Shown here: in pieces, positions 21,501-24,500 of the stretch
Layout of the letters: each line of letters opens with the position of its first letter
Numbering within the stretch: the first letter of the stretch is position 1
Source: Escherichia coli
Lineage (GTDB): Bacteria; Pseudomonadota; Gammaproteobacteria; Enterobacterales; Enterobacteriaceae
DNA: 64,000 bases
Reading direction: 5' to 3' (one strand)
Assembly: GCF_003334405.1 (NCBI RefSeq)
Contig: NZ_QOWM01000001.1
Position numbers: made by a program

Positions 21501-24500
21501 TACGTTAACTCCCCGTATGGCATTACGCTTGCCCACAACGGCAATCTGACCAACGCTCACGAGTTGCGTAAAAAACTGTTTGAAGAAAAACGCCGCCACA
21601 TCAACACCACTTCCGACTCGGAAATTCTGCTTAATATCTTCGCCAGCGAGCTGGACAACTTCCGCCACTACCCGCTGGAAGCCGACAATATTTTCGCTGC
21701 CATTGCTGCCACAAACCGCTTAATCCGCGGCGCGTATGCCTGTGTGGCGATGATTATCGGCCACGGTATGGTTGCTTTCCGCGATCCAAACGGGATTCGT
21801 CCGCTGGTACTGGGAAAACGTGATATTGACGAGAACCGTACAGAATATATGGTCGCTTCCGAAAGCGTAGCGCTCGATACGCTGGGCTTTGATTTCCTGC
21901 GTGACGTCGCGCCGGGCGAAGCGATTTACATCACTGAAGAAGGGCAGTTGTTTACCCGTCAATGTGCTGACAATCCGGTCAGCAATCCGTGCCTGTTTGA
22001 GTATGTATACTTTGCCCGCCCGGACTCGTTTATCGACAAAATTTCCGTTTACAGCGCGCGTGTGAATATGGGCACGAAACTGGGCGAGAAAATTGCCCGC
22101 GAATGGGAAGATCTGGATATCGACGTGGTGATCCCGATCCCAGAAACCTCGTGTGATATCGCGCTGGAAATTGCTCGTATTCTGGGCAAACCGTACCGCC
22201 AGGGCTTCGTTAAAAACCGCTATGTTGGCCGCACCTTTATCATGCCGGGCCAGCAGCTGCGTCGTAAGTCCGTGCGCCGTAAACTGAATGCCAACCGCGC
22301 CGAGTTCCGCGATAAAAACGTCCTGCTGGTCGACGACTCCATCGTCCGTGGCACCACTTCTGAGCAGATTATCGAGATGGCACGCGAAGCCGGAGCGAAG
22401 AAAGTGTACCTCGCTTCTGCGGCACCGGAAATTCGCTTCCCGAACGTTTATGGTATTGATATGCCGAGCGCCACGGAACTGATCGCTCACGGTCGCGAAG
22501 TTGATGAAATTCGCCAGATCATCGGTGCTGACGGGTTGATTTTCCAGGATCTGAACGATCTGATCGACGCCGTTCGCGCTGAAAATCCGGATATCCAGCA
22601 GTTTGAATGCTCGGTGTTCAACGGCGTCTACGTCACCAAAGATGTTGATCAGGGCTACCTCGATTTCCTCGATACGTTACGTAATGATGACGCCAAAGCA
22701 GTGCAACGTCAGAACGAAGTGGAAAATCTCGAAATGCATAACGAAGGATGATGCCTTCGCTGAGGGTGCCGGTCTGGCACCCTGACTTGCAACTCCCGCC
22801 GAAATCCTGCAAAGTCTGCCTGCAAGTCTGACAGGGCAACTATTTATGAAACGACTCATTGTAGGCATCAGCGGTGCCAGCGGCGCGATTTATGGCGTGC
22901 GCTTATTACAGGTTCTGCGCGATGTCACAGATATCGAAACGCATCTGGTGATGAGCCAGGCAGCGCGCCAGACCTTATCCCTCGAAACGGATTTTTCTCT
23001 GCGCGAAGTGCAGGCATTAGCCGATGTCACGCACGATGCGCGCGATATTGCCGCCAGCATCTCTTCCGGTTCTTTCCAGACGCTGGGGATGGTGATTTTA
23101 CCCTGTTCAATCAAAACCCTTTCCGGCATTGTCCATAGCTATACTGATGGCTTACTGACCCGTGCGGCAGATGTGGTGCTGAAAGAGCGTCGCCCGTTGG
23201 TGCTCTGCGTGCGTGAAACACCATTGCACTTAGGCCATCTGCGTTTAATGACTCAGGCGGCAGAAATCGGTGCGGTGATTATGCCTCCCGTTCCGGCGTT
23301 TTATCATCGCCCGCAATCCCTTGATGATGTGATAAATCAGACGGTTAATCGTGTTCTTGACCAGTTTGCGATAACCCTTCCTGAAGATCTCTTTGCCCGC
23401 TGGCAGGGCGCATAACTCCGCTGTTGCCCTGTTTCAGGGCAATTTTGCAACCGCGATCAAATCCTCGACATTTTGTTTCTGCCATTCAATCGAAACGCTG
23501 CGATTCAACCGCTATACCTGCTATCTTCAACTTCAGGACAATAATGCAACGTCTTATTAACATATTTAACGTTGAATGTTACTGTTGTCGTCAAGATGGC
23601 ATAAGACCTGCATGAAAGAGCCTGCAAACACACAACACAATACACAACATAAAAAAGCCATTTTCACTTGAGGGTTATGTATGAAGAAGTCGATTCTCGC
23701 TCTGTCTTTGTTAGTCGGTCTCTCCACAGCGGCTTCCAGCTATGCGGCGCTACCGGAGACGGTACGTATCGGAACCGATACCACCTACGCACCGTTCTCA
23801 TCGAAAGATGCTAAAGGTGATTTTGTTGGCTTTGATATCGATCTCGGTAACGAGATGTGCAAACGGATGCAGGTGAAATGTACCTGGGTTGCCAGTGACT
23901 TTGACGCGCTGATCCCCTCACTGAAAGCGAAAAAAATCGACGCTATTATTTCGTCGCTTTCCATTACCGATAAACGTCAGCAGGAGATTGCCTTCTCCGA
24001 CAAGCTGTACGCCGCAGATTCTCGTTTGATTGCGGCCAAAGGTTCACCGATTCAGCCAACGCTGGATTCACTGAAAGGTAAACATGTTGGTGTGCTGCAG
24101 GGATCAACCCAGGAAGCTTACGCTAACGAGACCTGGCGTAGTAAAGGCGTGGATGTGGTGGCCTATGCCAACCAGGATTTGGTCTATTCCGATCTGGCTG
24201 CAGGACGTCTGGATGCTGCGTTACAAGATGAAGTTGCTGCCAGCGAAGGATTCCTCAAGCAACCTGCTGGTAAAGATTTCGCCTTTGCTGGCTCATCAGT
24301 AAAAGACAAAAAATACTTCGGTGATGGCACCGGTGTAGGGCTACGTAAAGATGATGCTGAACTGACGGCTGCCTTCAATAAGGCGCTTGGCGAGCTGCGT
24401 CAGGACGGCACCTACGACAAGATGGCGAAAAAGTATTTCGACTTTAATGTCTACGGTGACTGATACGTCGCTGGGAAGCTGTACCTGATGGAATGATCAT

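What the first reader, a model, noticed from the sequence alone, without database searches (positions are those of the whole stretch)
23597..23612. Sigma54-type promoter in front of argT
TGGCAT-N5-CTGCA carries the invariant GG and GC dinucleotides at the exact -24/-12 spacing, about 70 bp upstream of the argT ATG, implying a nitrogen-controlled promoter. No clean NtrC dyad was found directly upstream within 200 bp, so the NtrC sites upstream of hisJ (about 0.9 kb downstream) or other sites may serve it.
Basis: partly seen in the sequence, partly recalled or inferred. Interest (0 to 1): 0.35.

Follow-up and report, generated by a model that had tools for sequence, protein, structure and literature searches.

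The report
Known sigma-54 promoter of argT
This is the already described nitrogen-starvation (sigma-54, NtrC-dependent) promoter of the E. coli arginine/lysine/ornithine uptake gene argT, so the finding is correct but ordinary.

Summary
The motif TGGCATAAGACCTGCA is at 23597-23612 (+), with GG-N10-GC spacing, 68 nt before the argT ATG, in the ubiX-argT spacer of an E. coli chromosome. The sequence match alone is not beyond chance: it is the best PWM hit in the window, but 69% of random 64-kb sequences reach that score. Context and experiment carry the call. All 80 ArgT-orthologue loci fetched from Enterobacteriaceae have exactly one such motif, with TGGCA and TGC invariant and the spacer variable. 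The same 17-mer is a published sigma-54 ChIP-seq site in E. coli (OS22, argT). RpoN holoenzyme selects this ubiX-argT spacer in vitro. The same 18-mer is the S. Typhimurium argT promoter. So this is argTp, already known.

E. coli has no canonical NtrC dyad upstream, only a degenerate palindrome at -190. Most other genera carry canonical dyads at -221, and some at -190, and Escherichia lacks the segment that holds the distal one. The only perfect dyad lies at +907, in front of hisJ. Which enhancer serves argTp in E. coli is unresolved. A published sigma-70 promoter overlaps the site, and sigma-54 represses it.

The parts
23597..23612 (+). argTp core: sigma-54 -24/-12 element TGGCAT-AAGAC-CTGCA (GG at 23598-99, GC at 23610-11)
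   Evidence: Searches show the sequence. It is PWM rank 1 in the window. TGGCA and TGC are invariant in 81 of 81 sequences and the final A in 80 of 81; spacer positions vary. It is the published sigma-54 ChIP-seq motif ATGGCATAAGACCTGCA. It is unchanged in the most divergent E. coli checked.
23622..23624 (+). Predicted sigma-54 transcription start, C of GC taken as -12 (predicted only, +/-2 nt)
   Evidence: This is an inference from the -12 GC position. It agrees with the rule of PMC4591121 (19 bp downstream of the motif centre) and their 58-nt distance to the argT start. EcoCyc status at that time was 'predicted'. I found no mapped sigma-54 TSS.
23627..23650 (+). C/A-rich tract of the argT 5' UTR (ACACAACACAATACACAACA), probable GcvB sRNA target; Shine-Dalgarno GAGGG at 23670-23674
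   Evidence: The sequence is. The tract varies in length but stays CA-rich in all genera. argT is listed as a GcvB R1-seed target, verified in Salmonella and conserved in E. coli (PMC9299463). That GcvB pairs at this exact tract is my inference.
23681..24463 (+). argT coding sequence (lysine/arginine/ornithine periplasmic binding protein)
23557..23585 (+). Overlapping sigma-70 promoter: -35 TTAACA (23557-62), 17-bp spacer, extended -10 TGtTACTGT (23577-85), start near 23591
   Evidence: PMC4551910 supplementary Table S3 places the sigma-54 motif at +6 to +22 of the active sigma-70 start. argT expression with rpoN is 23% of vector. The hexamer assignment is my reading of the sequence. The -35 block is invariant across genera; the -10 is not conserved.
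23425..23441 (.). Palindrome TGCCCTG-TTT-CAGGGCA centred at -190: degenerate NtrC-like dyad and/or ubiX 3' stem-loop
   Evidence: It has 3 mismatches to TGCACY-N5-GGTGCA and 2 if R is allowed at position 12. It aligns with a 1-mismatch NtrC dyad in Klebsiella and Raoultella. In other genera it is kept as a hairpin through compensatory changes while NtrC-likeness is lost (4-6 mismatches). It is the first base of the 198-bp 'argTp' clone of PMC7045595.
24522..24538 (.). Perfect NtrC dyad TGCACTATCGTGGTGCA, +907 from the predicted argT start and about -116 from a would-be hisJ sigma-54 start. A GGTGCA half-site lies 29 bp upstream (24504-24509).
   Evidence: It is the only 0-mismatch hit in 64 kb. 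It lies under the strong NtrC ChIP-seq peak 2424941-2425021 (23.7-fold), which maps to window 24473-24553. Dyads are present at +860 to +950 in nearly all of the 80 loci.
24619..24635 (+). hisJ-proximal sigma-54-like motif ATGGCACGATAAGTGTA, with GT instead of GC at -12
   Evidence: It is PWM rank 4 in the window. TGGCAC is invariant (TGGCACGATAA in most genera, TGGCACATTAA in the Enterobacter group), while the -12 part varies by genus. It is absent from the text, tables and held supplements of the sigma-54 ChIP-seq paper.
23442..23478 (.). Strongly conserved block ATTTTGCAACCGCGATCAAATCCTCGACATTTTGTTT (-181 to -145), function unassigned. Further conserved blocks lie at 23497-23508, 23518-23528 and 23546-23572.
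   Evidence: Conservation profile and alignments are. No good match to IHF, CRP, Nac, Lrp or ArgR consensus was found. There was no Rfam hit.

Best explanation
The element is argTp, the sigma-54 (RpoN) promoter of argT in E. coli, orthologous to S. Typhimurium argTr.

Proposed mechanism:
1. RNA polymerase carrying sigma-54 binds the GG (-24) and GC (-12) doublets and sits there as a closed complex in all conditions. This binding is shown by published ChIP-seq and in vitro selection.
2. Under nitrogen limitation, phosphorylated NtrC uses ATP to open the complex. Transcription starts near 23623 and gives a 58-nt leader. The activator assignment comes from the literature. The start site is predicted only.
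3. The leader carries a C/A-rich tract that is the likely pairing site of the GcvB sRNA (inferred).
4. In nitrogen-replete cells the bound, inactive sigma-54 polymerase lies at +6 to +22 of an overlapping sigma-70 promoter and lowers argT transcription about four-fold (published). The site therefore acts as a switch between basal sigma-70 and induced sigma-54 expression.

The enhancer that delivers NtrC in E. coli is not settled. The ancestral arrangement in Enterobacteriaceae is a canonical NtrC dyad at -221, joined in some genera by a second at -190 or -208. Escherichia has lost the distal one. My estimates for E. coli, which are not mutually exclusive:
- the degenerate -190 palindrome acts as a weak site, about 0.35;
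- the strong hisJ-proximal dyads at +907 act by looping, about 0.25;
- NtrC acts from solution at high concentration, about 0.25.
For: Sequence and context:
- Exact motif, spacing and position.
- E. coli ubiX-argT-hisJQMP context.
- Best PWM hit in the window with argT held out of the training set.

Conservation:
- 80 of 80 orthologous loci from about 25 genera have exactly one TGGCA[CT]-N5-NTGC[AT] at -66 to -105 from the ATG. The chance expectation is about 0.001 per locus.
- TGGCA and TGC are invariant and the final A nearly so (80 of 81). The flanks average 49-55% identity.
- The surrounding 60-mer is present at >=95% identity in 5425 of 5426 complete E. coli genomes. The most divergent one checked, an O157:H7 strain, differs from the window only downstream of -12.

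Literature:
- sigma-54 ChIP-seq site OS22, motif ATGGCATAAGACCTGCA, 12-fold above threshold.
- RpoN gSELEX peak at the argT/ubiX spacer.
- Identical Salmonella 18-mer, with sigma-54 ChIP-chip signal and 3.5-fold rpoN-dependent expression driven by a promiscuous activator.
- NtrC ChIP-seq entry for argT, with up-regulation in N-starved cells.
- argTp-lacZ and argT mRNA rise in a glnK mutant.
- argT described as sigma-54/NtrC-dependent and not ArgR-regulated.
- sigma-70 overlap and repression by sigma-54.

Enhancer architecture.
Against: - The motif score alone is reached by chance in 69% of random 64-kb sequences.
- I found no experimentally mapped sigma-54 start site for E. coli argT. EcoCyc listed the promoter as 'predicted' in 2015.
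- The NtrC ChIP-seq peak at argT is weak (5.4-fold) and was added by eye.
- There is no canonical NtrC dyad upstream in E. coli.
- In nitrogen-replete cells argT is expressed without rpoN, at a higher level.
- The strong plasmid activity of the 198-bp argTp fragment was not tested for rpoN dependence, and that fragment also contains the sigma-70 promoter.
- The primary Salmonella papers (Ames and Nikaido 1985; Schmitz et al. 1988) and the Reitzer, Zimmer and Barrios papers are not held in the library, so I could not read them.
Confidence: 0.93

Rival explanations
1. The site's main role is repressive. It parks inactive sigma-54 polymerase just downstream of a sigma-70 start, as a roadblock or competitor. 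Productive sigma-54 transcription of argT in E. coli is minor.
For: - PMC4551910 reports argT reads at 23% with rpoN relative to vector, the motif at +6 to +22 of the sigma-70 start, and in vitro competition with purified components.
- There is no canonical upstream NtrC dyad in E. coli.
- NtrC ChIP at argT is weak.
- The E. coli sigma-54 TSS is only predicted.
Against: - argT is induced in N-starved cells and listed in the NtrC regulon.
- argT rises when NtrC-P rises in a glnK mutant.
- The Salmonella orthologue is counted as experimentally sigma-54-dependent, and its expression depends on rpoN when a promiscuous activator is supplied.
- The -24/-12 element is invariant across genera, whereas the sigma-70 -10 is not conserved.
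- The two roles are compatible rather than exclusive.
Confidence: 0.05
2. It is a chance match to the -24/-12 consensus with no function.
For: Random 64-kb sequences often contain an equally good PWM hit. The relaxed pattern also hits inside an ORF at 43219-43234, a site not reported as bound.
Against: The motif is conserved in 80 of 80 loci with invariant GG and GC. Published sigma-54 ChIP-seq, gSELEX and ChIP-chip all report this exact site. Of the top five PWM hits in the window, only this one is in the ChIP-seq list.
Confidence: 0.01
3. It is a sigma-54 promoter, but it is activated by an enhancer-binding protein other than NtrC.
For: E. coli has no canonical NtrC dyad upstream. Several strongly conserved upstream blocks have no assigned factor.
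Against: Most other genera have canonical NtrC dyads at a fixed -221, and several also have one at -190 or -208. An NtrC ChIP-seq signal and Ntr-dependent expression are published.
Confidence: 0.01

Closest known systems
S. Typhimurium argT promoter (argTr), sigma-54/NtrC-dependent
   Same: It has the identical 18-mer TGGCATAAGACCTGCATG, the same gene and the same position. It is listed as experimentally sigma-54-dependent with NtrC as activator. The -190 palindrome is also identical in the two Salmonella loci fetched.
   Different: Salmonella keeps the ~35-bp segment upstream of the palindrome, with a good right half-site (CGTGCA) at -221. Escherichia lacks that segment, and the ubiX stop codon lies 9 nt from the palindrome.
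E. coli glnAp2 (the standard NtrC/sigma-54 promoter)
   Same: Both have a -24/-12 core, activation by NtrC-P, and an adjacent sigma-70 promoter for basal expression (for glnAp1/glnAp2). In other Enterobacteriaceae argT has two dyads about 30 bp apart. From established knowledge, glnAp2 likewise has a pair of sites at -140 and -108.
   Different: E. coli argTp lacks canonical upstream dyads. The ancestral argT dyads sit farther away (-221 and -190). The argT NtrC ChIP signal is 5.4-fold against 71-fold at glnA.
Class II 'sigma-54-repressed sigma-70 promoters' of Schaefer et al. 2015 (argT, mdfA, topA)
   Same: argT is a named member. The sigma-54 motif lies just downstream of the sigma-70 start, and expression is lower when sigma-54 is present.
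   Different: Unlike most members of that list, argT is also a recognised activator-dependent sigma-54 promoter.

Membership tests
sigma-54 (RpoN) -24/-12 promoter | GG and GC doublets separated by exactly 10 bp (GG-N10-GC) within a TGGCAC-N5-TTGCA-like core | tested here: met
   TGGCAT-AAGAC-CTGCA at 23597-23612. It has two mismatches to the 11 specified consensus positions, and both are Y-for-Y substitutions.
sigma-54 (RpoN) -24/-12 promoter | Score comparable to verified sites in a position weight matrix | tested here: met
   The score is 14.98 bits. The training set ranges from 8.3 to 21.7 with a median of 16.1. The site is rank 1 in the window, but the score is not beyond chance for 64 kb.
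sigma-54 (RpoN) -24/-12 promoter | Intergenic, in sense orientation, a short distance upstream of a gene | tested here: met
   It lies in the ubiX-argT spacer on the + strand. The predicted start is 58 nt before the argT ATG.
sigma-54 (RpoN) -24/-12 promoter | Conserved in orthologous positions, with GG and GC invariant | tested here: met
   80 of 80 loci have the motif. TGGCA and TGC are 100% conserved and the final A 99% (80 of 81); spacer positions are 70-100%.
sigma-54 (RpoN) -24/-12 promoter | Occupied by sigma-54 holoenzyme | not testable with these tools
   From the literature: ChIP-seq OS22, gSELEX and Salmonella ChIP-chip.
sigma-54 (RpoN) -24/-12 promoter | Transcription depends on rpoN and an ATPase activator, and starts about 12 nt after the GC | not testable with these tools
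   Dependence is reported for Salmonella and stated for E. coli. The E. coli start site is predicted only.
NtrC-activated promoter with a local upstream enhancer (glnAp2-type) | One or more TGCACC-N5-GGTGCA dyads roughly 100-250 bp upstream | tested here: not met
   In E. coli there is only TGCCCTGTTTCAGGGCA at -190, with 3 mismatches that include the core A4 and T14 positions. No other hit lies in 23416-23596. The feature is met in most other genera, with 0-2 mismatch dyads at -221 and in some also at -190 or -208.
NtrC-activated promoter with a local upstream enhancer (glnAp2-type) | NtrC bound in vivo under nitrogen starvation | not testable with these tools
   From the literature: a 5.4-fold peak at 2425861-2425941 (window 23553-23633), added by visual inspection. 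The peak at the hisJ-proximal dyad is 23.7-fold.
NtrC-activated promoter with a local upstream enhancer (glnAp2-type) | Induced by nitrogen limitation through NtrC | not testable with these tools
   From the literature.
sigma-70 promoter occluded by sigma-54 holoenzyme (Schaefer class II) | sigma-54 motif within or just downstream of the sigma-70 polymerase footprint, with higher expression when rpoN is absent | tested here: inconclusive
   The published position is +6 to +22 and the expression ratio 23%. I can read a -35 TTAACA and an extended -10 at the right distance, but the simple promoter scan did not call it, and the -10 is not conserved.

The most novel reading that the evidence does not exclude
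Enhancer re-assignment in Escherichia. The argT sigma-54 promoter lost its ancestral upstream NtrC dyad through a deletion of about 35 bp next to the ubiX stop codon. Separately, the hisJ sigma-54-like promoter lost its -12 GC (now GT) and shows no reported sigma-54 binding, yet it keeps a perfect, strongly NtrC-occupied enhancer. On this reading, the hisJ-proximal enhancer now drives argTp from 0.9 kb downstream by DNA looping.
Probability: 0.2. Interest if true: 0.4.

Novelty: already known. Interest (0 to 1): 0.1.

Why it matters
It matters little as a discovery. argTp is a catalogued sigma-54/NtrC promoter, and it has already been used as an engineering part for nitrogen-responsive expression (PMC7045595).

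Two by-products are of modest use to people who study bacterial enhancers:
- In Escherichia the promoter has no canonical NtrC site upstream, whereas most other Enterobacteriaceae keep a canonical dyad at a fixed distance (-221), and some a second at -190.
- The nearest strong NtrC site belongs, by position, to hisJ.

This makes argT-hisJ a convenient natural case for testing long-range or shared enhancer use. It also cautions that the widely used 198-bp 'argTp' part contains a sigma-70 promoter.

Tried and rejected
- Consensus scans of 23416-23625 for IHF, CRP, Nac, Lrp and ARG boxes gave nothing better than 2-4 mismatches, so no factor is assigned to the conserved blocks.
- An Rfam scan of 23300-24800 at E<=1 gave no hit.
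- A local alignment of the argT and hisJ regulatory regions, looking for a duplicated promoter, found no similarity beyond the RBS-proximal part. The score was 18 against a shuffle mean of 17.
- The simple sigma-70/terminator scan found no sigma-70 promoter or terminator in the ubiX-argT spacer. I read the published sigma-70 promoter by eye from the coordinates in PMC4551910.
- The -190 palindrome as an intrinsic terminator: the hairpin is strong (-10.4 kcal/mol) and is kept by compensatory changes, but the T-tract is short and is absent in Enterobacter. I call it only a 3' stem-loop.
- Reitzer and Schneider 2001, Zimmer 2000, Ames and Nikaido 1985 and Barrios 1999 are not held in the library. 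A full-text search for argTr/dhuA returned only unrelated papers.
- Hsu et al. 1991, 'E. coli argT promoter', concerns the tRNA-Arg gene of the same name and is irrelevant.
- The RpoN gSELEX peak reported in the dedD-cvpA spacer (about window 20422) has no sigma-54-like motif; the best score there is 7 bits.
- The plasmid data of PMC7045595 cannot be used as evidence that local sequences suffice for sigma-54 activation. rpoN dependence was not tested, and the sigma-70 promoter lies inside the clone.
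Full report
**What is there.** The window is E. coli chromosome. A 501-bp query around the finding matches all 5426 complete E. coli genomes, many at 100% identity. RefSeq annotates ubiX upstream and argT, hisJ, hisQ, hisM and hisP downstream. The 16-mer TGGCATAAGACCTGCA is at 23597-23612 on the + strand and is unique in the window. GG is at 23598-99 and GC at 23610-11, which is the canonical GG-N10-GC register. The argT ORF starts at 23681, so the motif ends 68 nt before the ATG. Taking the C of GC as -12 puts the predicted start at about 23623, with a 58-nt leader.

**Is it more than chance?** On sequence alone it is not.
- The relaxed pattern TGGCAY-N5-YTGCW occurs twice in the window against 0.47 expected.
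- The consensus with up to two mismatches is not enriched: 21 hits against 27 expected.
- I built a PWM from the 41 other intergenic-sense sigma-54 ChIP-seq motifs of Bonocora et al., holding argT out.
- The argT 17-mer scores 14.98 bits and is the top hit of the whole window on both strands.
- However, 69% of Markov-1 random 64-kb sequences contain a site at least that good.
- The other high-scoring hits in the window (2415-2431, 13260-13276, 24619-24635, 43219-43235) are not among the published bound sites. This shows that the motif by itself does not identify a promoter.

**Comparative evidence.**
- A scan of one genome per species with the ArgT protein returned 80 loci, at 85-99% amino-acid identity. 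They cover Escherichia, Citrobacter, Salmonella, Enterobacter, Klebsiella, Raoultella, Kosakonia, Pluralibacter, Leclercia and other genera.
- Every locus has exactly one TGGCA[CT]-N5-NTGC[AT] in the 320 nt upstream of argT, at -66 to -105 from the ATG. From, about 0.001 hits per locus would be expected by chance.
- In the alignment, TGGCA and TGC are 100% conserved and the final A in 80 of 81. Spacer positions 23605 and 23608 are only 70% conserved. The 20-nt flanks average 49-55% identity.
- The alignment was anchored on the motif, so the informative result is the 80-of-80 presence rather than the column identity.
- Within E. coli, the surrounding 60-mer is present at >=95% identity in 5425 of 5426 genomes. 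The most divergent one checked (O157:H7) differs from the window only at 23617, 23618 and 23622, all downstream of -12.

**Published evidence on this exact sequence.**
- Bonocora et al. 2015 list sigma-54 ChIP-seq site OS22: motif ATGGCATAAGACCTGCA, motif centre 2425890 on the - strand, gene argT, distance 58, 12-fold above threshold, EcoCyc status 'predicted'. Their coordinates map exactly onto 23596-23612.
- Shimada et al. 2021 found an RpoN-holoenzyme gSELEX peak in the argT/ubiX spacer.
- Samuels et al. 2013 list the S. Typhimurium argT promoter as TGGCATAAGACCTGCATG, identical over 18 nt. It has a sigma-54 ChIP-chip signal and 3.5-fold rpoN-dependent expression driven by a promiscuous activator. 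They count argT among four Salmonella operons experimentally shown to be sigma-54-dependent, citing Ames and Nikaido 1985.
- Brown et al. 2014 list argT among NtrC ChIP-seq targets that are up-regulated in N-starved cells.
- The finding is therefore a rediscovery of a catalogued promoter.

**A second, overlapping promoter.**
- Schaefer et al. 2015 report that argT reads are higher without sigma-54 (rpoN/vector = 23%).
- They place the sigma-54 motif at +6 to +22 of the active sigma-70 start.
- They show competition with purified components.
- That puts the sigma-70 start near 23591.
- At the right distance I read a -35 TTAACA (23557-62), a 17-bp spacer and an extended -10 TGtTACTGT (23577-85). 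This assignment is my inference. The -35 block is invariant across genera; the -10 is not.
It reflects a dual-promoter arrangement and is not evidence against the sigma-54 promoter.

**The enhancer question.**
With TGCACY-N5-GGTGCA and up to three mismatches, the only hit in 23416-23596 is the palindrome TGCCCTGTTTCAGGGCA (23425-41, centre -190). The only perfect site in 64 kb is TGCACTATCGTGGTGCA at 24522-38, upstream of hisJ.
- Most other genera carry a 0-2-mismatch NtrC dyad centred at -221/-220 from the predicted start. A second NtrC-like dyad sits at -191/-190 (1 mismatch in Klebsiella and Raoultella, the 2-mismatch palindrome in most others). In a few genera the second dyad is at -209/-208 instead.
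- Escherichia (E. coli, E. albertii, E. whittamii and cryptic clades) lacks the ~35-bp segment that holds the distal dyad, so the ubiX stop lies 9 nt from the palindrome. Salmonella and Citrobacter keep only a right half-site there.
- The -190 element itself is ambiguous. In Klebsiella and Raoultella it is a 1-mismatch NtrC dyad.
- In Yokenella, Trabulsiella, Pseudocitrobacter and some other lineages it keeps a strong hairpin through compensatory changes (for example CGCCCCG...TGGGGCG and CGCCCGG...CGGGCG) while drifting to 4-6 mismatches from the NtrC consensus. That pattern points to a ubiX 3' stem-loop.
- Its T-tract is short and not universal, so I do not call it a terminator.

**Evidence bearing on which enhancer is used in E. 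coli.**
- The NtrC ChIP-seq signal is strong (23.7-fold) over the hisJ-proximal dyad (window 24473-24553). It is weak (5.4-fold, added by eye) at window 23553-23633, which is on the promoter and not on the palindrome.
- No sigma-54 binding is reported near hisJ in the main text or held supplements of the ChIP-seq paper. A sigma-54-like ATGGCACGATAAGTGTA does sit 49 nt before the hisJ ATG. Across genera its TGGCAC is invariant (TGGCACGATAA in most, TGGCACATTAA in the Enterobacter group).
- Its -12 part varies: TGCA in Citrobacter, CGCA in Salmonella, TGTA in Escherichia, and GGCA, GCCA or TGGC elsewhere.
- NtrC is known to act from sites far from a promoter (Reitzer and Magasanik 1986, cited).
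- Against it, an argTp-lacZ fusion moved to the lac locus still responds to glnK deletion. The extent of that fragment is not given.
- The 198-bp plasmid clone of PMC7045595 (window 23425-23622, from its primers) is very active. It was not tested for rpoN dependence and it contains the sigma-70 promoter, so it does not decide the matter.
- I leave the enhancer unresolved, with rough weights of 0.35 for a weak -190 site, 0.25 for hisJ-proximal looping and 0.25 for activation from solution.

**Other features.**
- The leader contains a C/A-rich tract (23627-23650) that varies in length but persists in all genera. argT is a listed GcvB R1-seed target. That GcvB pairs at this tract is inferred.
- Several upstream blocks are conserved at >=95% across genera: 23442-23478, 23497-23508, 23518-23528 and 23546-23572. 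They match no consensus I tried.
- The spacing between the -221/-190 positions and the promoter is fixed to within 1-2 bp in most genera. That is consistent with a constrained enhancer-promoter architecture.

**Verdict.** The element is the known argTp sigma-54/NtrC promoter. Novelty: already known. Interest is low. The only modestly new points are the Escherichia-specific loss of the distal NtrC dyad and the resulting open question of which enhancer serves the promoter.

Noticed in passing
window 23416-23441 versus loci L007-L080 (about -240 to -180 from the argT start): Escherichia lacks a ~35-bp segment found in the other Enterobacteriaceae, which in most genera carries a canonical NtrC dyad at -221. 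The ubiX stop codon therefore lies 9 nt from the -190 palindrome. Salmonella and Citrobacter retain only a right half-site.
   Followed up: yes
window 23425-23441: The palindrome TGCCCTGTTTCAGGGCA is kept as a hairpin by compensatory substitutions across genera, even where it stops resembling an NtrC site. It is probably a ubiX 3' stem-loop that doubles as an NtrC-like dyad in some lineages.
   Followed up: yes
window 23442-23478, 23497-23508, 23518-23528, 23546-23572: These blocks of the ubiX-argT spacer are conserved at >=95% across about 25 genera. They include an inverted repeat CAACGT-N16-ACGTTG. They show no convincing match to IHF, CRP, Nac, Lrp or ArgR consensus sequences, and the binding factor is unknown.
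   Followed up: partly
window 24619-24635: The sigma-54-like motif ATGGCACGATAAGTGTA lies 49 nt before the hisJ ATG and is the fourth-best PWM hit in the window. The TGGCAC -24 core is invariant across genera, while the -12 part varies and is GT in Escherichia. It is not among published sigma-54 ChIP-seq sites. It may overlap the hisJ sigma-70 -10.
   Followed up: partly
window 24493-24580: The hisJ upstream region holds a GGTGCA half-site and a perfect NtrC dyad 29 bp apart, followed by conserved ARG-box-like sequence (TGCATACTTAAGCAT...). Escherichia lacks a ~21-bp segment that carries a third NtrC-like dyad in most other genera.
   Followed up: partly
window 23627-23650: A C/A-rich repeat (ACACAACACAATACACAACA) lies in the argT leader. 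Its length varies between genera (some have long CAACA expansions). It is the likely GcvB sRNA pairing site.
   Followed up: partly
window 2415-2431 (-), 13260-13276 (-), 43219-43235 (-): These are the other high-scoring sigma-54 PWM hits (12.5-14.2 bits). None is in the published high-stringency sigma-54 ChIP-seq list. The one at 43219 lies inside a 405-aa ORF in sense orientation. They are probably chance matches.
   Followed up: partly
window about 20380-20700 (dedD-cvpA spacer): A published RpoN gSELEX peak maps here, but no sigma-54-like motif is present (best score 7 bits). The spacer contains REP-like palindromic repeats.
   Followed up: partly
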